DNA of 64,000 nucleotides from the NCBI GenBank assembly GCA_964510085.1, contig CAZEAB010000003.1:18276-82275 (forward strand), read 5' to 3'. This stretch comes from an uncultured Methanosarcinales archaeon (GTDB taxonomy: Archaea > Nanobdellota > Nanobdellia > Woesearchaeales > GW2011-AR9). Both the position numbers and the translations under genes were made by a program. This document shows, in pieces, positions 1,778 through 61,577 of the stretch. Position 1 is the first letter of the stretch. Each line of letters begins with the position of its first letter. The notes under the pieces were generated by a model that did not search any database, was not told where the DNA came from, and saw only the letters and a list, made by a program, of their open reading frames with translations.

Positions 1778-2914
1778 ATGGAACAGAAGCAATTAGATGA
1801 ACTTGACGAATCCTATTTCGGCGAGGAATTTATTGATGATGAAGAGATAAAAATTGAAGATGTCAAGCCAGCTAAAGCTAAAACTGCTAAAAAGAAAGCT
1901 GAGAAGAAAACATCAAAAAAATCAACTAAAAAAGAAGCAACCAACGCTAAACCAATTGAGTTAGATTCTTTAGATAACATTCAACCAGAGATTGACGATT
2001 TACCTCCGGTTGAAGTAACTGAGATTACACATGAGGAACCACTTGTAAAACAAACAAGCGCAGCTCCTCTTGATACGCCTAAATCAGATCCAATCGATCC
2101 ATGGGCAAATGAAGAAGAAGATGAAAATCTTTTCAAAGAAACTTCTACCTGGAAAGCAATTACTGGAATTGCAGTAATCTTGTTAATCCTTTCAGTATTT
2201 ACTGGTGGATTTCACTTTTCGGGACCAACAGGAGCAGCAGTTGCAGATGGAATTTCATTAGATACAGCTGAACAGAAGGCATTAACATATGTAAATGATA
2301 AGTTGTTACAACCTCCTTTCGTTGCAACAGTTGAAAAGTCTGAAGATGTAGGAACAGTATACAAAATAACATTAAATCTTGCAGGGGAACCAATTGAATC
2401 CTATATGACTAAAGATGGTGAGTTTTTCTTTCCACAAGGTTTCGATGTTGATGGAACAACTCCAACAGAAGAAACAGTTGATCTTGAACCGGTAGAACCT
2501 GTTGTTAAAGAAGAACCTACAGAAGAACCAGTAGTAGTAGATGTACCTACAGAAGAACCAGTTGAGGTAACACCTCCAGTTGAGGAAAAACCAGTTGAAG
2601 TACCTGTAGAAGTGCCAGCTGAACCAACAACACAACTTTCAATGAGCTACAAAAAATGGAGTTTCTCTCCTACAAAGTTAACTGTAAAACAAGGAGATAA
2701 AGTGTCTTTAACAGTTTCTGCAGATACTTCCAATCCAAGTTTTGCTCTTCCAGGATTAACACTTGGAATACCTGGATTAGGAGTAGAACAAGCAGTTGAG
2801 GGAACAGGAACTGTAGAATTTACAGCAGACAAAGCGGGTTCATTTGAATTACTATGTGCAAGTTGTAGTGGAACTCAAGCAGCTGTAATGAAAGGAACAT
2901 TAGTTGTGGAATAA
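1778..2914 (+). CDS. Membrane-anchored acidic protein with Pro/Glu/Val-rich linker and C-terminal cupredoxin-like domain
   Basis: ATG at 1778 lies 5 nt after AGGGGTGA (the track starts at GTG 1769). Lys-rich N-terminus, one TM (ITGIAVILLILSVF), EPVxx low-complexity linker. The C-terminus 'VEFTADKAGSFELLCASC..MKGTLVVE' resembles the cupredoxin_1 fold, but the usual His ligands are not evident. Confidence 0.6.
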   Translation: MEQKQLDELDESYFGEEFIDDEEIKIEDVKPAKAKTAKKKAEKKTSKKSTKKEATNAKPIELDSLDNIQPEIDDLPPVEVTEITHEEPLVKQTSAAPLDTPKSDPIDPWANEEEDENLFKETSTWKAITGIAVILLILSVFTGGFHFSGPTGAAVADGISLDTAEQKALTYVNDKLLQPPFVATVEKSEDVGTVYKITLNLAGEPIESYMTKDGEFFFPQGFDVDGTTPTEETVDLEPVEPVVKEEPTEEPVVVDVPTEEPVEVTPPVEEKPVEVPVEVPAEPTTQLSMSYKKWSFSPTKLTVKQGDKVSLTVSADTSNPSFALPGLTLGIPGLGVEQAVEGTGTVEFTADKAGSFELLCASCSGTQAAVMKGTLVVE

Positions 2915-2916
2915 AT

Positions 2917-3004
2917 GCGTGTGTCAAGGGTAGCGCCCTGACTAGTCGAGACGGGTACCCCAAAGGGGTACGATATCCGTCGTGCCCTACCCAAAGACAC
3001 ACAC
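2917..3004. ncRNA. GC-rich structured RNA element, family copy 1 (unclassified)
   Basis: Starts 3 nt after the stop codon. Nested helices: GTGTGTC/GACACAC, GGGTAG/CTACCC, GACGG/CCGTC and a perfect 7-bp GTACCCC-AAA-GGGGTAC hairpin with a 3'-side bulge GATAT. Shares blocks GCCCTGACT, CGAG and GTGC with 8108-8205 and 43660-43778. Transcribed strand not established. Confidence 0.5.
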
Positions 3005-3050
3005 TAAGGAATAGAAACATTTTTATTCTTCTTTTTTTCTTCTTGACATT

Positions 3051-5220: not shown

Positions 5221-6195
5221 TTAAAAGTCAATAGGAAAGTACATTTGTCGAATGATAATATATCCAATAAACAGTGCTATAAGAACAACACTTTCCCACT
5301 TCTTTAATTTCTCATTTGTTAACAAGAAATAATATATCAAACCAGCGGTTGCAATCTTTATAGGAAGGTCATACCAAATAACAACATTTGGAATAACATA
5401 ACTTGAAATTGCTGCTCCCACCCCAATACCAAACAAAGGATTAGTAATATTACTTCCAATTAAAATCCCGGCACTCACATCTTTCTTTCCTTTAAGCACT
5501 GCAATAAGAGATGTAGTTAATTCTGGTAAGGCCGATGCAACTCCTAGCATAATAACACCAAAGAAGGATGCACTTATTGAAAGAGATGAAATAATAACTG
5601 TTGCAGCATCTAACACTAACTCTGCTGTAAATGCCATAAACACAAACGAAATTAAGATTAACGAAGTTCCTAACCAAATATCCTTTTTAGATAAATCGTT
5701 AGTCGCAACAACACCTTTTTCATGAAGTTTTTTCTTCTTTAGATATAATAAATAAAACAAGTATGCTAAAATTAACAACCATCCCTCTACCTGTGAAATA
5801 ACCCCTCCTAGAGAAAATAACCATACTAACAAAGCGGCTCCAATTAAACCACCCATCTCTACAAATAAGTTCTTTCTAATAACAACAACAGTGCCTATAA
5901 TCGCAATAACAGGAAGCACAAGATTCTGCTGAAAAATGTCAGAACCAATATTGTTTCCAATAAGTAATCCAGATAAAGTATTCATTAATGCTGGCTGGCT
6001 AACAATTTTAACACTTCCAATAATATGAGTCATAATTTCAGGGATACTTGTTCCTATGGAAAGGATAGTAAGCCCAATAAACGTACCAGAGATTCCGTAA
6101 TGTTTTGCAATAGAAATCGAATTCTTAATAATCATCTCTGCAAGTACAAGTATAATAATAAATCCAATTACAAGTGAGAGTATTTCATTAAGCAT
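5221..6195 (-). CDS. Na+/Ca2+ exchanger family (CaCA, YrbG-like) membrane protein
   Basis: Two alpha-repeat signatures, GTSIPEIMTH and GSNITNPLFGIG, in a polytopic membrane protein. Confidence 0.8.
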   Translation of the reverse strand: MLNEILSLVIGFIIILVLAEMIIKNSISIAKHYGISGTFIGLTILSIGTSIPEIMTHIIGSVKIVSQPALMNTLSGLLIGNNIGSDIFQQNLVLPVIAIIGTVVVIRKNLFVEMGGLIGAALLVWLFSLGGVISQVEGWLLILAYLFYLLYLKKKKLHEKGVVATNDLSKKDIWLGTSLILISFVFMAFTAELVLDAATVIISSLSISASFFGVIMLGVASALPELTTSLIAVLKGKKDVSAGILIGSNITNPLFGIGVGAAISSYVIPNVVIWYDLPIKIATAGLIYYFLLTNEKLKKWESVVLIALFIGYIIIRQMYFPIDF

Positions 6196-8107: not shown

Positions 8108-8205
8108 GTAACATCATTTTGGGAATGGGGGCCCAGGCTTGCCGAGGCGGTTATAATCGCAGATTATAGAAACCCGCCGTGCCCCATAATCCAAATGTAT
8201 GTTAC
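8108..8205. ncRNA. GC-rich structured RNA element, family copy 2 (unclassified)
   Basis: Begins at the nt after the stop codon. Long imperfect closing stem GTAACAT..ATGGGG / CCCCAT..ATGTTAC. Core GCCCAGGCT-TGC-CGAG-GGCGG-T-TATAATC-GCA-GATTATA-GAAAC-CCGCC-GTGC has the same architecture as copy 1. Confidence 0.5.
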
Positions 8206-42471: not shown

Positions 42472-43650
42472 ATGACTCTTTACACTTTAAAATATGCACC
42501 TAAGAACTCTAACCAGGTATTTGGACAAGATGAAGGAAAAGTAAAACTTAAAGACTTTATAACAAACTACACTCAACAAAAATTCAAAGCAGCGCTAGTT
42601 CATGGCCCCCTTGGAGTTGGTAAAACGTCTTCAGTATATGCAATAGCAAATGAACTCAAATATGACGTTCTTGAAATAAACTCTTCAGATCTACGAAACG
42701 CAGCAAACATTAAATCATTCCTTGATTCAGCATTAGGACAGCAATCCTTATTCTTCACACCAAAATTAATCTTAATAGATGAAGTAGATAACATCTCCGG
42801 TGTAAAAGATAGAGGGTGTGTTCCAGCTGTATTGAAAGCTATCGAAAAATCAAAATTCCCTATAATACTCACAGCAAATGACATCTATGACAAGAAACTT
42901 AAACCATTAAAGAAAGCAGCTTTACCTATAGAATATCCAAAATTAGATTATAAAATAATTGCTCACGGATTAGAATGGGTGGCGCAACAAGAGAACATTA
43001 CGTACGAAATTAAAGCAGTTAATTCCTTAGCAAGACAAGTTGATGGAGATATGCGTGCAGCTCTTCTCGATTTACATACGTGTGGCAACAACTTTACATT
43101 TGACAAAGTAACAACCTTATCAGATAGAAAGAGAACAGAAGCTATAACGTCCGCATTACGAATAATCTTCAAATCATCAACAGCAGAAAATGCCTTACGA
43201 GCGTTAGATGATGTTGATATAGACATGGACCAAATATTCATGTGGATGGATTACAATTTACCAAAGGAATATACAGATGCAAAATCCTTAGCAAAAGCAT
43301 ATGAAGTTCTTTCAAGAGCAGATGTTTTCCGAGGAAGGATTAGGCGAAGACAACATTGGCGATTTCTTGCATACATGTATAATCTCTTAACAGCAGGAAT
43401 TTCTACATCAAAAGAACAACGTAACACAGAATTTGTTCAGTATAAACCAACTATGAGGCTTCTTCGAATTTGGCAAGCTAATATGAAGAATGCCAAAAAG
43501 AAAGAAATCGCAAAAAAACTAGCAGCAAGAACTCACGTTTCTACACGAGTTGCAATGAAGCAGATACCCTATTTGCAGAAATATTGTGATAATTCTATTG
43601 CTGAAGAATTAGAATTAAGTGATGATGAGTTTAATTGGTTAAAGAAGTAG
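42472..43650 (+). CDS. rfcL: Replication factor C large subunit
   Basis: 'KYAPKN', Walker A 'GPLGVGKTS', 'LILIDEVDN', 'DMRAAL' sensor. Confidence 0.88.
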   Translation: MTLYTLKYAPKNSNQVFGQDEGKVKLKDFITNYTQQKFKAALVHGPLGVGKTSSVYAIANELKYDVLEINSSDLRNAANIKSFLDSALGQQSLFFTPKLILIDEVDNISGVKDRGCVPAVLKAIEKSKFPIILTANDIYDKKLKPLKKAALPIEYPKLDYKIIAHGLEWVAQQENITYEIKAVNSLARQVDGDMRAALLDLHTCGNNFTFDKVTTLSDRKRTEAITSALRIIFKSSTAENALRALDDVDIDMDQIFMWMDYNLPKEYTDAKSLAKAYEVLSRADVFRGRIRRRQHWRFLAYMYNLLTAGISTSKEQRNTEFVQYKPTMRLLRIWQANMKNAKKKEIAKKLAARTHVSTRVAMKQIPYLQKYCDNSIAEELELSDDEFNWLKK

Positions 43651-43659
43651 GTTTGTTTC

Positions 43660-43778
43660 TGTAAGCGCTGCCCTGACTCCTCTGAGCAAAGCTCAGGGCG
43701 CAAACGGGAAAGCTATCCCGTTAAGCGAGTCGAGGTGGGTACATGGAACATGTACAAGTCCACCGTGCAGCGCTTACA
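43660..43778. ncRNA. GC-rich structured RNA element, family copy 3 (expanded, unclassified)
   Basis: 12-bp closing stem TGTAAGCGCTGC/GCAGCGCTTACA. Contains GCCCTGACT, two extra hairpins (CTGAGC-AAA-GCTCAG; AACGGGA-N6-TCCCGTT), then CGAG-GGTGG-GTACATG-GAA-CATGTAC-AAGT-CCACC-GTGC. Confidence 0.5.
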
Positions 43779-57945: not shown

Positions 57946-58236
57946 TTAAAGCATACTACGTATACTTTCTATGTTAGATGCGATGTCATGGCCTTTCTTC
58001 GTTAATTCTAACAACTTTAAACGACCATCTTTTCTGAATTTAATTAATTCAGCTTTCTGCATCTCTTGCAAAATTTTCACTACATGACTGTATGTACAAT
58101 CAATTTGTTTTGCCAAAACAGACGCATAAATGTTTGCATTGGCATTCTTTAGTTCGACCAACATCATTGCTGGTTTTTCCCTGAAAAATACGTCAAAAAT
58201 TACTTTCTTTGTGATCAAATTCACACCCCCAAACAC
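57946..58236 (-). CDS. Small winged-helix transcriptional regulator
   Basis: 'YASVLAKQIDCTYSHVVKILQEMQKAELIKFRKDGRLKLLELTKKG'. Start codon uncertain (GTG 58236 or an internal Met). Confidence 0.7.
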   Translation of the reverse strand: MFGGVNLITKKVIFDVFFREKPAMMLVELKNANANIYASVLAKQIDCTYSHVVKILQEMQKAELIKFRKDGRLKLLELTKKGHDIASNIESIRSML

Positions 58237-58350: not shown

Positions 58351-60180
58351 ATGTTTTTTCCCCATGATACAAAAAGACCAGGCCAAGATACGCTTATGGA
58401 AGACATTTCTGAAGCTCTTACCGACGGTAAAACAATTCTTACTCATGCACCAACAGGATTAGGGAAAACAGCAGCAGCTCTCTCAGAAGCCCTTGCTGTA
58501 GCTATGGAAGAAGATAAAGTAATATTCTTCTTAACAAATAGACATACCCAACATCAGATTGCAATAGATACATTAAAGAAAATAAAGAAGAAAACAGGTT
58601 CAGATTTCCATACGGTAGATTTGATTGGAAAAAGATGGATGTGTAATCAATCTATTGCACAAATGATGGGCTCTGATTTTAATGAATATTGTAAATCTCT
58701 TGTTGAGAAAGGAGAATGTGAATTTTACAATAATGTCAAAAAGAAAAGTGCATTACAAGTACAAGCACAAGTACATATCAAAGACTTACAACGACAAGGT
58801 CCACTTCATACGGGAGAATTAATAGAACAATGTCAAGATAAAAAAATGTGTTCATACGAAATTGCAGTTGCAATGTCAAAAAATGCCCGAATAATCATCG
58901 GAGACTATTATTACATGTTTAATCCACACGTACAAGCATCTATCTTAAACAAGATTGAAAGAGAATTACAAGACATAATAGTTGTTGTAGACGAAGGACA
59001 TAACCTTCCTAACAGAGTTACTGAAATGATGAGTAATAATCTCACTACAAACATGATTAAGAATGGGTTAGTAGAAGCAAAGAAATACAGGTACGATGGC
59101 ATTATAGTCTGGCTTCAAGACATGATGGAAATTCTAAACAACCTTGTTGGCGACGAAGAAAAAACAGTTACACGAGAGCAATTTACGAACGCGCTCAAAA
59201 TCAAAATAGATTATGAAGAATTAATGAACCAACTTGATTTAGCTGCAGAAGAAATAAGAAAAAAACAACGACGAAGTTATCTTGGGGGTATTTCTGCTTT
59301 CTTAGAGGCATGGGAAGGTCCCGATGAGGGATTCGTACGAATTATTGCAGAACACCGAAGTAAATACGGACCCATAATCTCATTACAATATTCTTGTTTG
59401 GATCCAGCATTAATAACACGAGATATCTTCAAAAATATTCACTCTGCGATTATCATGTCTGGTACGTTACAACCCACTTTTATGTATAAAGATATTTTAG
59501 GAATTGATAACGGTGTAATGAAGGACTATACCTCTCCATTTCCTCCAGAGAATAAAGTAAGTTTAATTGTTCCGGATACTTCAACAAAATATACCGTACG
59601 TGGAGATGTGATGTATAAGAGAATAGCAAATCATTGTAGTGAGATAATCAAACTAACTCCAGGGAATGTTGCAATATTTTTTCCTTCTTATTATTTGAGA
59701 GATTCTATAGCTCCATTTCTCTCCACTAAAAGAAAATGTTTCTACGAAAAAAACACCATGACCAAAGAAGAAAAACAAGGTTTATTACAAGAATTTGAAG
59801 CAGAGAAAGATGTTGGCGGTGTACTTCTTGGGGTTAGTGGAGCTAATTTCGCCGAAGGAATAGATTTTCCCGGTGATATATTGAAAACAGTTGTAGTTGT
59901 CGGATTACCTCTTGCAAAACCAGATCTTAAAACAAAATCACTCATTACGTATTATGATACAAAATATGGCAAGGGATGGGATTATGGATATACATTCCCT
60001 GCTTTTAGTAAGTGCATTCAATCTGCTGGACGTTGTATTAGATCAGAAACGGATGAAGGCGTTGTAGTTTATTTAGACGAACGGTTTGCATGGCAGAGAT
60101 ATTACAACTGTTTCCCGGAGAAAGTAGGGTTGATTGTTTCTAAAGAATATAGTAAGATTATGGCTGAGTTTTTTAGTTAA
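58351..60180 (+). CDS. xpd: XPD/Rad3-family 4Fe-4S DNA helicase
   Basis: 'THAPTGLGKT', four Cys (WMCNQ..EYCKS..GECEF..KMCSYE), 'VVVDEGHNL', C-terminal 'QSAGRCIR'. ATG 58351 lies about 25 nt after a TATA box. Confidence 0.9.
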   Translation: MFFPHDTKRPGQDTLMEDISEALTDGKTILTHAPTGLGKTAAALSEALAVAMEEDKVIFFLTNRHTQHQIAIDTLKKIKKKTGSDFHTVDLIGKRWMCNQSIAQMMGSDFNEYCKSLVEKGECEFYNNVKKKSALQVQAQVHIKDLQRQGPLHTGELIEQCQDKKMCSYEIAVAMSKNARIIIGDYYYMFNPHVQASILNKIERELQDIIVVVDEGHNLPNRVTEMMSNNLTTNMIKNGLVEAKKYRYDGIIVWLQDMMEILNNLVGDEEKTVTREQFTNALKIKIDYEELMNQLDLAAEEIRKKQRRSYLGGISAFLEAWEGPDEGFVRIIAEHRSKYGPIISLQYSCLDPALITRDIFKNIHSAIIMSGTLQPTFMYKDILGIDNGVMKDYTSPFPPENKVSLIVPDTSTKYTVRGDVMYKRIANHCSEIIKLTPGNVAIFFPSYYLRDSIAPFLSTKRKCFYEKNTMTKEEKQGLLQEFEAEKDVGGVLLGVSGANFAEGIDFPGDILKTVVVVGLPLAKPDLKTKSLITYYDTKYGKGWDYGYTFPAFSKCIQSAGRCIRSETDEGVVVYLDERFAWQRYYNCFPEKVGLIVSKEYSKIMAEFFS

Positions 60181-60779
60181 CGATAAACTCGCATGTCAAC
60201 AACTCCATCATTATCAAAATCAATATCTTGACGAACTACTTTACCATTCTTATCTTTATGGTGTTTAGTAGTAGAAGTTCTTTTCTTTTTATGATCAGTT
60301 ATTGTTGAGGTGTCTACTTTAGGACTATATCTAAGAGTCATTGTTCTTACAAGAATTCCTCCCTCATAGGCTTTATTTAAAATTATTCTCCCACGTGCAT
60401 CATGGTCTTTTTCTTCTTCATAATCCCAAGAACCATCTCCATTGGAATCTAAAGCTTGGTAGATTACCTTTCTATCATGGAATCTGACAACAGTTTCTCG
60501 ATAAAGAGTGTTATTAGCACCAAAGGTTCTACGTCTTATATCAAATACTTCTCCTGTTTTGGTATTAACTGTAGCATCAGTAAGGTTATATATCCCTCCA
60601 GCTAGATTATTACGTGTATGGATTTTTCTAATAGGAGATGCTGGTCTTTTTTGTGATAGTTTTACTTCACTAATGGGCCTTGATGGTGTATAATTATTCA
60701 TAAAAGAAGCTTCAACAGCCGGACTTAGAAGTAATCCTGCAACGAGCGTACATATGGTTGTAGCAATATTTTTAGCCAT
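60177..60779 (-). CDS. Secreted protein with Dx[DN]xDG calcium-binding-like motifs
   Basis: Signal peptide; 'DSNGDGSWD' and 'DFDNDGVVD'. Confidence 0.55.
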   Translation of the reverse strand: MAKNIATTICTLVAGLLLSPAVEASFMNNYTPSRPISEVKLSQKRPASPIRKIHTRNNLAGGIYNLTDATVNTKTGEVFDIRRRTFGANNTLYRETVVRFHDRKVIYQALDSNGDGSWDYEEEKDHDARGRIILNKAYEGGILVRTMTLRYSPKVDTSTITDHKKKRTSTTKHHKDKNGKVVRQDIDFDNDGVVDMRVYR

Positions 60780-60880
60780 ATTTTTTTTAAATTTAGTTCA
60801 TTTATATATTTTTCTGAAAACTCCACTCTTGAGTGGTGACTTCCAAAAAGTTTATATAGTAGTTCTCCTATTAACCTTAT

Positions 60881-61048
60881 ATGATAGACTACATTGTAAA
60901 TGAATTGATCTTAAAACCAGCTTTTAAAATACCTCAAACTGGATTAGCTAAAGCCCTTAATTCTCTAGCAGATTATAAAATTATGACTCCAACAGATATG
61001 ATTGCTGCTAAAGCAATAGGCGCACCTATTAAGCTCTTTTACAAATAA
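60881..61048 (+). CDS. 55-aa leaderless small ORF
   Basis: TTTATATA at 60851-60858, 22 nt before the ATG. Hand-translated as MIDYIVNELILKPAFKIPQTGLAKALNSLADYKIMTPTDMIAAKAIGAPIKLFYK. Confidence 0.35.
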   Translation: MIDYIVNELILKPAFKIPQTGLAKALNSLADYKIMTPTDMIAAKAIGAPIKLFYK

Positions 61049-61116
61049 TTACTTTTTATAACCTATATACTACACTAAATACTATTTTTAATGAACCAGT
61101 ATACAAAATAGTAACA

Positions 61117-61124
61117 TTTATATA
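61117..61124 (+). promoter_or_regulatory. TATA box for the 61150-61262 RNA gene
   Basis: TTTATATA about 25 nt upstream of the GGGG at which the GC-rich body starts. Confidence 0.5.
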
Positions 61125-61149
61125 CTTGTTACACTTTACTGCTATCATT

Positions 61150-61262
61150 GGGGAAAAAGAGGTATTGACTCCATGGGGGCTTAGGCCTCCACTCACACTC
61201 ATGCGGACTCCGTCAAGATTCTACCACCCTCACCCCCTCTTCGGAGATCCGCTTCTTTTTTT
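61150..61262 (+). ncRNA. Stand-alone GC-rich small RNA gene, unclassified (possibly pseudoknotted)
   Basis: TATA box, a GC-rich roughly 100-nt body in an AT-rich genome, and a terminal CTTCTTTTTTT. Helices: GGGG/CCCC, GAGG/CCTC, TTGAC/GTCAA, GGGGGC-TTAG-GCCTCC, and GCGGACTCC/GGAGATCCGC, which crosses the first ones. Confidence 0.6.
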
Positions 61263-61271
61263 AATAAGAAA

Positions 61272-61577
61272 TTAGAGAGTATATCTACTTTCAATATTTA
61301 CTTTTATTTTAGAAAGAACTGGGTTAGGAATATTATCTTTAATTAATTCTATTGTAGCATCAGGAGATATAGTATGTATATATTCTTTTATTTCAGAAGG
61401 ATTTTCTCCAGCAGGTATTGCAAAACGAACAGATTTCTCAACATCTTGAGTATTCTCAACAAGAACATTTCTGTTTTTCTCTAAACAAAATTTTCTAATT
61501 CTACCACGAAACATAACCCCGGTAATTGAAGTTAATTTTGTTCTTATTTCGTAAATATCCCATGTAATAATATCCAT
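61272..61577 (-). CDS. Hypothetical protein (weak acylphosphatase-like pattern)
   Basis: 'ITGVMFRGRIRKFCLEKNRNVLVEN' faintly resembles the V-G-x-VQGV-x-FR acylphosphatase motif. Confidence 0.4.
   Translation of the reverse strand: MDIITWDIYEIRTKLTSITGVMFRGRIRKFCLEKNRNVLVENTQDVEKSVRFAIPAGENPSEIKEYIHTISPDATIELIKDNIPNPVLSKIKVNIESRYTL

What the first reader, a model, noticed from the sequence alone, without database searches (positions are those of the whole stretch)
61150..61262. Independent roughly 110-nt GC-rich RNA gene with its own TATA box and oligo-T terminator
TTTATATA (61117-61124) lies about 25 nt before a run of G that opens a GC-rich body, and the body ends in CTTCTTTTTTT. This is the classic archaeal small-RNA gene layout. 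It sits between the ends of two minus-strand genes, so it is not a UTR. Helices readable by eye are GGGG(61150-53)/CCCC(61233-36), GAGG/CCTC, TTGAC(61165-69)/GTCAA(61212-16) and the hairpin GGGGGC-TTAG-GCCTCC. A 9-bp helix GCGGACTCC(61203-11)/GGAG-A-TCCGC(61243-52) crosses the first helices, so a pseudoknot or alternative fold is possible. A 10-nt unpaired ACTCACACTC (61191-61200) could be an antisense/guide segment. It shows no cloverleaf, no T-loop, no C/D or ACA boxes and no 5S pattern, and it is too short for SRP or RNase P RNA.
Basis: seen in the sequence. Interest (0 to 1): 0.62.

Follow-up and report, generated by a model that had tools for sequence, protein, structure and literature searches.

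The report
Conserved C-rich-loop small RNA gene
The flagged stretch is a real, previously uncatalogued small RNA gene shared by dozens of tiny DPANN (Woesearchaeota-type) archaea; its core is a hairpin with an almost invariant, G-free, C-rich loop, and that loop probably pairs with the G-rich ribosome-binding site of a nearby regulator gene.

Summary
A 60% GC island lies in a 34% GC window, a perfect TTTATATA box sits about 25 nt upstream, and the island ends in an oligo-T run. No Rfam family and no tRNA matches it.

Pattern and covariance-model searches found about 70 distinct homologues. All come from Woesearchaeota/Nanoarchaeota MAGs, with one copy per locus, usually just downstream of the XPD helicase gene.

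Shared features:
- a near-identical 45-nt promoter block, ACCAGTATAC-N6-GTAACATTTATATAC;
- a variable 5' region;
- one helix in which all 10 pairs show compensatory changes;
- a 22-nt invariant G-free loop core, AUUCUACCACCCUCACCCCCUC;
- a U-run.

In a sister clade the same promoter drives a 135-aa winged-helix-like protein, and the hairpin sits directly after its stop codon. The window's gene therefore looks like a former 3'-UTR element that became a stand-alone gene.

Best mechanism (inferred): the loop is an antisense seed for G-rich Shine-Dalgarno sites. The leading candidate target is the neighbouring winged-helix regulator p96, whose 5' region carries GGGGGUG in 21 of 34 lineages against 1 of 421 other start regions.

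Expression is untested.

The parts
61095..61104 (+). Upstream promoter element ACCAGTATAC, possibly an activator or repressor site
   Evidence: It is conserved at 80% or more in 64 distinct family members. The combination of this element with the TATA box precedes the RNA in 79 of 80 occurrences across 784 kb of loci. It is unique in the window. In the sister clade the same element drives the p135 protein gene.
61111..61125 (+). BRE/TATA box GTAACATTTATATAC (TATA at 61117-61124)
   Evidence: It is a perfect match to the window's promoter consensus: 16 near-matches against 4.6 expected. It is invariant across the family.
61132..61139 (+). Conserved promoter-proximal block CACTTTAC, between the TATA box and the predicted start
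   Evidence: The family consensus here is ..tgTtgtgcTTTact. Its function is unknown.
61148..61262 (+). Predicted transcript of about 113 nt (ends inferred, not measured)
   Evidence: In the 15 members that carry the GGGAAAAAGAGG motif, the motif begins 23-27 nt after the TATA box. The T-run is at 61253-61262. This span is 99% identical to the closest relative L043, against 66-67% in the flanks.
61150..61163 (+). 5' purine motif GGGGAAAAAGAGGT, resembling a Shine-Dalgarno site
   Evidence: GGGAAAAAGAGGUGAUA is conserved at the predicted start in 15 divergent members, and no ORF is conserved after it. It forms a perfect 8-bp match to the canonical 16S 3' tail. Its pairing to the loop is no better than shuffled versions, p=0.28.
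61175..61190 (+). Lineage-specific hairpin GGGGGC-UUAG-GCCUCC
   Evidence: It is present only in the window and L043. The single difference between them (61183 A>T) lies in its loop. No covariation test is possible.
61203..61211 (+). 5' arm of the conserved helix (GCGGACUCC)
   Evidence: The covariance model R1 aligns the window at 61192-61257 with 52.9 bits, E=1.2e-12. All 10 of 10 pairs show compensatory changes.
61212..61242 (+). 31-nt loop; the invariant G-free core AUUCUACCACCCUCACCCCCUC lies at 61218-61239
   Evidence: UUCUACCACCCUCACCCC (18 columns) is invariant across 54 aligned members. The wider 22-nt core is identical in nearly all of 64 members found by two overlapping exact-pattern searches, although part of that identity was imposed by the search patterns. 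The five members found independently through XPD synteny differ only by an A, C or U insertion or substitution.
61243..61252 (+). 3' arm of the conserved helix (GGAG-A-UCCGC, one bulged A)
61253..61262 (+). Oligo-T terminator TTCTTTTTTT
   Evidence: A run of four or more T lies within 25 nt after the stem in 56 of 64 members. A run of four or more A lies before the stem in only 8 of 64.
57949..58236 (-). p96, a small winged-helix DNA-binding protein gene and the candidate target; its G-box GGGGGTG is at 58224-58230
   Evidence: - It matches Pfam HTH_27 with E=3e-5.
- GGGGGTG occurs only three times in the window: here, antisense in the RNA loop, and once inside a coding region.
- The p96 5' region has a mean loop-duplex energy of -20.0 against a background of -8.1 kcal/mol. 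33 of 34 lineages fall below the background 5th percentile.
- In relatives with an unambiguous AUG start, the G-box sits 5-6 nt upstream of it.
58351..60180 (+). XPD/Rad3 helicase gene, the conserved upstream neighbour (context only)
   Evidence: It matches Pfam DEAD_2, HBB and Helicase_C_2. It lies upstream on the same strand in about 52 of 64 loci.

Best explanation
WHAT IT IS (shown by comparison). The stretch is a single-copy, independently promoted gene for a small non-coding RNA of roughly 65-140 nt, about 113 nt here. It is conserved in one clade of Woesearchaeota/Nanoarchaeota archaea.

Its only universal parts are:
- a dedicated promoter, ACCAGTATAC-N6-GTAACATTTATATAC;
- one 7-15-bp helix;
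- a large loop that holds an almost invariant, G-free, C-rich sequence, AUUCUACCACCCUCACCCCCUC, made of two C-blocks (CCACCCUC and ACCCCCUC);
- a U-tail.

In a sister clade the same promoter drives a 135-aa winged-helix-like protein (p135). There the hairpin, with loop motif AAUUCU..ACCACCCC, sits directly after the stop codon. The stand-alone gene most likely arose when the ORF between the promoter and the 3' hairpin was lost (inferred).

HOW IT WORKS (inferred). Because the loop has no G, it stays single-stranded and acts as an antisense seed for G-rich, Shine-Dalgarno-type sequences. The best candidate target is the mRNA of p96, a small winged-helix transcription factor encoded divergently from XPD 3 kb away. 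The p96 ribosome-binding site is GGGGGUG instead of the canonical GGAGGUG. That change gives a wobble against the 16S tail but a perfect match to the loop's CACCCCC. Pairing would hide the binding site and start codon and so repress, or otherwise tune, translation. The Zn-ribbon gene downstream may be a second target in some lineages.
For: Family and structure:
- Exact-pattern scans gave 13 archaeal hits, then 60 hits, and nearly all the non-chance hits are from Woesearchaeota/Nanoarchaeota.
- The covariance model finds one hit per locus in 64 loci, E from 1e-23 to 4e-6.
- All 10 of 10 pairs show compensatory changes. There are 137 such cells, 89.9% of cells are paired, 0/500 shuffles reach the observed value, and the signal collapses when the partners are slid.

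Strand: G-U 44 against A-C 10 cells, and a T-run follows the stem in 56/64 members.

Promoter: the block is conserved in 64 members and is specific to this gene in 79 of 80 occurrences.

Selection: the RNA body is 99% identical to the nearest relative, against 66-67% in the flanks.

Origin:
- p135 lies under the same promoter in 21 sister-clade loci and is absent from all RNA-clade loci.
- A hairpin with a G-poor loop follows the p135 stop in at least 13 of 21 loci, where about 2.4 would be expected by chance.

Target:
- GGGGGTG is present in 21 of 34 p96 5' regions against 1 of 421 other start regions. GGGGTG is present in 29 of 34 against 4 of 421.
- Loop-duplex energy averages -20.0 against -8.1 kcal/mol. 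33 of 34 lie below the background 5th percentile. Mann-Whitney p=2.6e-22.
- In the window, the p96 site is one of only three GGGGGTG occurrences. It also ranked among the top four of 25,600 scanned windows.
- Matched loop/target pairs beat swapped pairs, -20.7 against -19.7, permutation p=0.043. One example is the L154 loop AUCCCCCC with its own p96 site GGGGGGAU.
- Zn-ribbon gene start regions reach -26.5, -24.7 and -20.1 in three lineages.

Precedent: RsaE/RoxS use duplicated C-rich motifs, one presented in a hairpin loop, to pair with G-rich Shine-Dalgarno regions (PMC6158497). Methanosarcina sRNA41 masks ribosome-binding sites (PMC5867862).
Against: - No transcript was seen. Eight metatranscriptome contig sets from the same studies laid nothing on the locus. 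They also gave no sign that the organism is represented in them at all, so this result is uninformative.
- Any C-rich loop will score well against any G-rich ribosome-binding site, so the p96 signal may partly reflect an unusually strong binding site.
- The matched-versus-swapped covariation is weak (p=0.043).
- Inserted A residues between the two C-blocks in variants (L113, L110, L107) would bulge a continuous duplex. They fit two separate recognition units equally well, and those could also be protein contacts.
- The conserved AAUUCU part of the loop and the semi-conserved UCAYRAU motif 5' of the stem have no explanation in this model.
- The Zn-ribbon mRNA appears leaderless in several lineages, so it is not a universal target.
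Confidence: 0.45

Rival explanations
1. The RNA is a protein-binding scaffold, decoy or sponge. The invariant loop would be read by a sequence-specific single-strand RNA-binding protein, not by base pairing. Candidates are a poly-C-binding KH-type protein such as the archaeal NusA, Dim2/Pno1 or aCPSF1 KH domains, or one of the neighbouring winged-helix or Zn-ribbon proteins. The loop partly resembles the 16S 3' tail (UCACC..CUC against UCACCUCC).
For: - The core is invariant across genomes whose XPD proteins are only 50-66% identical. That is more typical of an RNP contact surface than of a regulatory seed.
- The variants insert A residues between two intact C-blocks, which suits two modular protein contacts.
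- AAUUCU and UCAYRAU are conserved but have no pairing partner. UCAY is present in 40 of 64 members against 10% of background windows.
- A small Zn-ribbon protein gene accompanies the RNA in at least 25 of 64 loci and only in the RNA clade.
Against: - No candidate protein could be tested.
- No K-turn or other known protein-binding motif is present.
- This model does not explain why the exact complement GGGGGUG is concentrated at the p96 start region.
Confidence: 0.25
2. The hairpin is a relic or cis element with no trans function. It would be the 3'-end-forming or stabilising structure of the former p135 mRNA, and the promoter-plus-hairpin remnant simply persists after the ORF was lost.
For: - In the sister clade the hairpin sits 4-51 nt after the p135 stop codon.
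- p135 is absent from all RNA-clade loci.
- The 5' region is highly variable in length and sequence.
Against: - A remnant would decay. Instead the loop is more conserved in the ORF-less clade than in the sister clade.
- The helix is kept by compensatory changes.
- The promoter is nearly invariant in 64 species.
- The whole RNA body is under purifying selection relative to its flanks.
- From general knowledge, archaeal termination needs only oligo-T, so a 29-nt conserved loop is not explained.
Confidence: 0.08
3. The feature is a DNA-level element. The inverted repeat with its C/G-rich core would act in DNA, for example as a protein-binding or recombination site, or as a G-quadruplex-prone template strand handled by the adjacent XPD-family helicase.
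For: - It is tightly linked to XPD.
- Strain-level divergence begins exactly at the 3' end of the element.
- The complementary strand carries G-runs.
Against: - The G-U against A-C asymmetry (44 against 10) and the one-sided T-run show selection on one transcribed strand.
- The arms vary freely while pairing is kept, which is the pattern of RNA, not of protein-DNA recognition.
- The G-runs do not fit a canonical G-quadruplex pattern.
Confidence: 0.04
4. It is a divergent member of a known RNA class: a split-tRNA half, a C/D or H/ACA guide, 5S rRNA, or a fragment of SRP or RNase P RNA.
For: - A few members have AUGAUGA (like box C) just 5' of the stem (4 of 64).
- According to another first-reader note, the genome encodes Nop10.
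Against: - ARAGORN finds nothing.
- Rfam finds nothing at gathering score or at E<=10, in the window and in two other members.
- There is no T-loop, no D box or K-turn geometry, no ACA box, and no upper stem or pseudouridylation pocket. The loop contains no G, so it cannot form internal helices.
Confidence: 0.02

Closest known systems
RsaE/RoxS of Firmicutes (Rfam RsaE)
   Same: - It is a small RNA of about 100 nt that is highly conserved across a large taxon.
- It has duplicated C-rich motifs, one presented in a hairpin loop.
- Those motifs pair with G-rich Shine-Dalgarno regions (PMC6158497).
- It has a U-rich 3' end.
   Different: - It is bacterial, with no sequence or covariance-model similarity.
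- Here both C-blocks lie in one 29-31-nt loop of a single helix.
- The promoter carries a dedicated, ultra-conserved upstream element.
- The target is only predicted.
Methanosarcina mazei intergenic sRNAs sRNA41 and sRNA154
   Same: They are archaeal trans-acting sRNAs proposed to mask ribosome-binding sites of target mRNAs (PMC5867862).
   Different: - They are restricted to Methanosarcina and unrelated in sequence.
- Their expression and targets were shown experimentally.
- The present family spans dozens of uncultured DPANN species and has far stronger sequence invariance.
3'-UTR-derived sRNAs of bacteria (for example CpxQ and SroC; from general knowledge)
   Same: In the sister clade the hairpin lies directly after the p135 stop codon. 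There the RNA would be made as the 3' end of an mRNA.
   Different: - In the window's clade the ORF is gone and the element has the promoter to itself.
- No processing evidence is available.
Other uncatalogued Woesearchaeota RNA elements noted in this scan (structured repeats, small-RNA cassettes)
   Same: They come from the same organisms. They are also GC-rich islands in AT-rich DNA, bounded by a promoter and a terminator.
   Different: - Those are multi-copy, mobile or strain-variable.
- This one is single-copy, syntenic with XPD, and conserved across a clade.

Membership tests
tRNA / split-tRNA half | Cloverleaf or half-cloverleaf with a T-arm (GTTCRANYC) and acceptor stem | tested here: not met
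   ARAGORN finds no tRNA in the whole window. Rfam tRNA does not hit at E<=10. No T-loop sequence is present in any member.
C/D box sRNA | Box C (RUGAUGA) and box D (CUGA) forming a K-turn, plus C'/D' boxes and 10-12-nt guides | tested here: not met
   AUGAUGA is present in only 4 of 64 members. No CUGA lies at the 3' side. The sequence 3' of the stem is U-rich, so the tandem G-A pairs cannot form.
H/ACA sRNA | Lower stem, pseudouridylation pocket, upper stem with K-turn or K-loop, and an ACA box 14-16 nt from the pocket | tested here: not met
   The loop core has no G, so no upper stem can form. No ACA box is conserved 3' of the helix. No Rfam hit.
5S rRNA / SRP RNA / RNase P RNA | A match to the Rfam covariance models (universal conserved loops and helices) | tested here: not met
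   No hit at gathering score or at E<=10, in the window and in two other members.
C-rich-seed antisense sRNAs (RsaE/RoxS-like mode of action) | Unpaired C-rich motif(s) presented in a loop | tested here: met
   A G-free loop core with two C-blocks is enclosed by a covariation-supported helix.
C-rich-seed antisense sRNAs (RsaE/RoxS-like mode of action) | Complementary G-rich sites at the ribosome-binding sites of conserved target mRNAs | tested here: inconclusive
   The p96 5' region is strongly and specifically enriched. However, only neighbouring genes could be searched, and G-rich binding sites pair with any C-rich sequence. The co-variation is weak, p=0.043.
C-rich-seed antisense sRNAs (RsaE/RoxS-like mode of action) | Homology to RsaE/RoxS | tested here: not met
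   No Rfam RsaE hit. The host is archaeal. This is an analogy of mechanism only.
Expressed small RNA gene (any family) | A discrete transcript with defined 5' and 3' ends | tested here: inconclusive
   Eight metatranscriptome contig sets showed nothing on the locus or on relative L109. No RNA run holds the sequence. Assembled contigs cannot show absence.

The most novel reading that the evidence does not exclude
The RNA and the winged-helix regulators next to it would form a deeply conserved RNA-transcription-factor circuit in DPANN archaea.
- The C-loop RNA works as a specialised mimic of the ribosome's anti-Shine-Dalgarno tail. It out-competes the ribosome for the non-canonical GGGGGUG binding site of p96.
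- A winged-helix protein (p96, or ancestrally p135) in turn controls the RNA gene through the ultra-conserved upstream element ACCAGTATAC.
- The RNA gene was born when the p135 ORF was deleted from between its promoter and its 3'-UTR hairpin.

This would be the first clade-wide sRNA regulatory module, with a traceable origin, described in DPANN archaea.
Probability: 0.2. Interest if true: 0.8.

Novelty: new member of a known kind. Interest (0 to 1): 0.68.

Why it matters
Almost nothing is known about regulatory RNAs in DPANN archaea, which make up a large share of archaeal diversity and have tiny genomes with little room for non-essential genes.

This family has several useful properties:
- It is single-copy and is kept in about 70 species.
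- It has one of the most conserved promoters seen in these genomes.
- It offers a concrete, testable RNA-mRNA pairing: loop CACCCCC with the p96 site GGGGGUG.
- It appears to record the birth of an RNA gene from a 3' UTR by loss of the ORF.

It also provides a ready seed alignment for a new Rfam family. That would improve annotation of hundreds of MAGs, where the locus is currently blank or mis-called as small ORFs.

Tried and rejected
- **Known RNA families.** Rfam at gathering score and at E<=10 found only junk matches (miRNA and lncRNA models). ARAGORN found nothing.
- **A small protein gene.** The conserved core is read in different frames in different members, and it shows no synonymous variation. 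This was rejected.
- **K-turn, C/D or H/ACA geometry.** Checked by eye on the alignments and rejected.
- **Viral origin.** Four hits in viral contigs lack the stem and the promoter, so they are chance matches.
- **Bacterial hits to the 18-19-mers.** Their number matches chance expectation, and they lack the promoter. L070 (Deltaproteobacteria) has a 7-bp flanking stem but a GC-rich context, and was treated as chance.
It is no better than shuffled motifs, p=0.28. The motif may instead pair with the U-tail in some members, or act as a ribosome-binding-site-like sequence. This remains unresolved.
- **Telomerase-like template idea.** Every contig holds a single copy of the motif, and no tandem G-rich repeats were seen. 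It was not pursued.
- **Complementarity to rRNA.** No rRNA lies in any held locus, so this could not be tested.
- **Other best window-wide duplex sites.** The site at 5776 lies inside a membrane-protein ORF. The site at 61496 lies in the non-conserved 101-aa gene. Both are judged chance.
- **Neighbour proteins p152, p515, p101, p200 and p55.** None gave an informative family or structure match.
- **Tool closures.** Whole-genome copy number, rRNA complementarity and genome-wide target prediction were therefore impossible.

Full report
**1. The observation**

- TTTATATA lies at 61117-61124, embedded in GTAACATTTATATAC.
- A G-run starts at 61150.
- The GC-rich body ends in GCTTCTTTTTTT at 61251-61262.

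The window is 33.8% GC. The stretch 61146-61263 is one of four islands that reach 60% GC or more. GTAACATTTATATAC is a perfect copy of the window's general BRE/TATA consensus, which has 16 near-matches against 4.6 expected.

Rfam finds nothing in the window at gathering score. Around the locus it finds only noise at E<=10. ARAGORN finds no tRNA in the whole 64 kb. The single-sequence fold is unremarkable, with z=-1.65 on the + strand and -0.33 on the - strand. The case therefore rests on comparison with relatives.

One detail in the finding is wrong. The upstream neighbours are a + strand 55-aa ORF (60881-61048) and the start of a minus-strand 200-aa gene, not the end of a minus-strand gene.

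**2. The family**

The source is a marine metagenome contig. When public assemblies were laid on the locus, contigs of other organisms matched the promoter (61085-61130) and 61217-61239, with different sequence in between.

Exact-pattern scans then recovered members:
- GATTCTACCACCCTCACC was searched in species-representative genomes and in JGI metagenomes.
- CTACCACCCTCACCCCCTC gave 60 hits.

Together these gave 64 distinct members. Nearly all are from MAGs labelled Woesearchaeota, Nanoarchaeota or Nanoarchaeia. The bacterial hits are as numerous as chance predicts, and they lack both the promoter and the stem.

A covariance model was built from 11 members. It finds exactly one hit per locus, with E from 1e-23 to 4e-6. 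The window scores 52.9 bits at 61192-61257.

**3. Anatomy**

All members share the following features.
- **(a) Promoter block.** The consensus is ttttaa.caACCAGTATACaAAAtaGTAACATTTATATActtgTtgtgcTTTact. The upstream element together with the TATA box precedes this RNA in 79 of 80 occurrences across 784 kb.
- **(b) Variable 5' region.** It runs from about 8 to about 115 nt. Fifteen divergent members, including the window, begin with GGGAAAAAGAGGUGAUA exactly 23-27 nt after the TATA box, which marks the likely start. A UCAY(RAU) motif lies just 5' of the stem in 40 of 64 members, against 10% of background windows.
- **(c) One helix of 7-15 bp.**
- **(d) A loop of about 29 nt.** It has the G-free core AUUCUACCACCCUCACCCCCUC (window 61218-61239).
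- **(e) A T-run.** It is present in 56 of 64 members.

The helix is proven by covariation:
- all 10 of 10 pairs show compensatory changes, in 137 cells;
- 89.9% of cells are paired;
- 0/500 shuffles reach the observed values;
- pairing collapses to 29-67% when the partners are slid.

G-U cells outnumber A-C cells 44 to 10, which points to the + strand as the RNA strand.

Against the closest relative (L043, whose XPD is 94% identical), the RNA body is 99% identical. The single change lies in a hairpin loop. The TATA-to-start spacer is 67% identical and the downstream DNA 66%.

The proposed guide ACUCACACUC is not conserved.

**4. Context and origin**

XPD helicase lies upstream on the same strand in about 52 of 64 loci. 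Convergent genes for a 152-aa and a 515-aa protein often lie downstream. A roughly 100-aa double-Zn-ribbon protein with its own conserved promoter lies downstream in at least 25 loci, though not in the window.

A scan with an XPD alignment fetched 80 further loci. Two results followed.

- *Loci with XPD at least 52% identical to the window's.* The model hits only these. Five new members appear, with small loop variants: CUCAACCCCC, CUCCACCCUCAAACCCCC, CUACUACCC and an extra C.
- *The sister clade, with XPD 42-47% identical.* This clade includes the complete genome GW2011_AR15.
  - The same promoter, including ACYAGTATAC, drives a 133-140-aa protein, p135 (MVILFDRFNLPEDIYE...SYNKRQFYDRILTP...), in 21 loci.
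  - The AF2 model of p135 (pLDDT 73) has weak winged-helix-like matches.
  - Directly after the p135 stop codon, at least 13 of 21 loci carry a 7-15-bp hairpin with a long G-poor loop containing AAUUCU..ACCACCCC. About 2.4 would be expected by chance.
  - p135 is absent from every RNA-clade locus and from the window.

The simplest history is that the ORF was lost and the promoter was left fused to the former 3'-UTR hairpin. The hairpin then stayed, and its loop became even more uniform. That argues for a function of its own.

**5. Mechanism**

A G-free loop cannot fold on itself, so it is a natural seed or binding platform.

I scanned the start regions of all ORFs in the RNA-clade loci against the loop. 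Two neighbouring gene families stood out: the Zn-ribbon gene in a few lineages, and p96.

p96 is a 96-aa winged-helix protein (Pfam HTH_27). It is encoded divergently from XPD, at window 57949-58236 on the minus strand.

The evidence for p96 as a target:
- The 100 nt before its conserved IFDVFF motif give a mean duplex energy of -20.0, against -8.1 kcal/mol for random windows. 33 of 34 lineages lie below the background 5th percentile. Mann-Whitney p=2.6e-22.
- The cause is a conserved GGGGGUG box. It is found in 21 of 34 p96 regions and in 1 of 421 other start regions.
- In lineages with an unambiguous AUG start, the box sits 5-6 nt upstream, which is Shine-Dalgarno position.
- In the window, GGGGGTG occurs three times in 128 kb of both strands: in p96, antisense in the RNA loop, and once inside an ORF.
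- GGGGGUG differs from the canonical GGAGGUG by one base. That base makes a wobble with the 16S tail but a Watson-Crick pair with the loop's CACCCCC. This last point uses the general archaeal 16S 3' tail sequence, not this lineage's own.
- Across clades, matched loop/target pairs are slightly better than swapped pairs, -20.7 against -19.7, p=0.043. The clearest example is the L154 loop AUCCCCCC with its own p96 site GGGGGGAU.

This layout parallels RsaE/RoxS, where duplicated C-rich motifs, one of them in a hairpin loop, pair with G-rich Shine-Dalgarno regions (PMC6158497). It also parallels Methanosarcina sRNA41, which masks ribosome-binding sites (PMC5867862).

What is shown: the gene family, the helix, the promoter, the synteny, the sister-clade arrangement, and the statistical link to p96.

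What is inferred: transcription and its exact ends, the ORF-loss history, and the pairing with its effect on translation.

**6. Weak points and rivals**

- There is no expression evidence.
- C-rich loops pair with any G-rich site.
- Inserted A residues between the two C-blocks, and the unexplained AAUUCU and UCAYRAU motifs, fit a protein-binding RNA about as well.
- The relic-terminator and DNA-element readings are disfavoured by the compensatory changes, the strand asymmetry, and the higher conservation in the clade that lacks the ORF.

**7. Novelty**

No Rfam 15 family matches. A full-text search for the core sequence, and for DPANN/Woesearchaeota RNA motifs, found nothing relevant. An earlier unchecked note from this scan describes a roughly 67-nt stem-loop downstream of XPD in another genome, which agrees with this finding.

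It is a new RNA family of a known general kind: an archaeal small non-coding RNA with a C-rich seed. It has an unusually conserved dedicated promoter and a traceable origin.

Noticed in passing
window 2901-3013, 8117-8194, 43646-43757: Three other GC-rich islands (55-63% GC) share the ordered blocks CCCTGAC / GYCGAG / hairpin / CGTGC inside a closing stem. They have no Rfam hit at gathering score.
   Followed up: no
L122:8166-8564, L129:5425-5811 and 19 other loci (sister clade): p135 is a conserved protein of about 135 aa (MVILFD..SYNKRQFYDRILTP..DYDLYKK) with no Pfam match and a weak winged-helix-like predicted fold. It is expressed from the same promoter that drives the RNA in the window's clade, and it is followed by the related hairpin.
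   Followed up: partly
window 58216-58236 (minus strand): By homology with relatives that use AUG, the winged-helix gene p96 probably starts at the UUG at 58218-58216, not at the annotated GTG at 58236. That places GGGGGUG at Shine-Dalgarno distance. Many relatives also use UUG or GUG starts here.
   Followed up: partly
L014, L022, L024, L046, L068, L086 etc., 180-480 nt downstream of the RNA: A protein of about 100 aa with four CxxC pairs (a double Zn-ribbon, ..SKDVY..RFDFxLR) lies downstream. It has its own conserved bipartite promoter, CATATACC..ATATAT-N12-16-AAARYATATATA. It occurs only in the RNA clade and is absent from the 64-kb window.
   Followed up: partly
window 60177-61048 and 61263 onward, compared with L043 and other loci: The slot between XPD and the RNA, and the DNA right after the RNA's T-run, are hot spots for small-gene gain and loss. 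The 200-aa and 55-aa genes occur only in the window and L043. Strain-level divergence starts exactly at 61263.
   Followed up: partly
window 61085-61130; L109 5770-5805: Many public assemblies break their contigs at the conserved promoter. Summed contig depth there reaches 143-183 in single samples. This indicates many co-occurring lineages that share this 35-nt block.
   Followed up: no
L020, L022, L024, L055 and many others (record titles): Dozens of AT-rich DPANN-like MAG contigs that carry this RNA and a Woesearchaeota-type XPD are labelled 'uncultured Methanosarcinales archaeon' in their TPA records. This is probably a labelling artefact.
   Followed up: no
window 61174-61185: A vestigial-looking mini-ORF, AUG GGG GCU UAG, sits 10 nt after the Shine-Dalgarno-like GAGGU of the RNA's 5' motif. 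It is not conserved in other members.
   Followed up: partly
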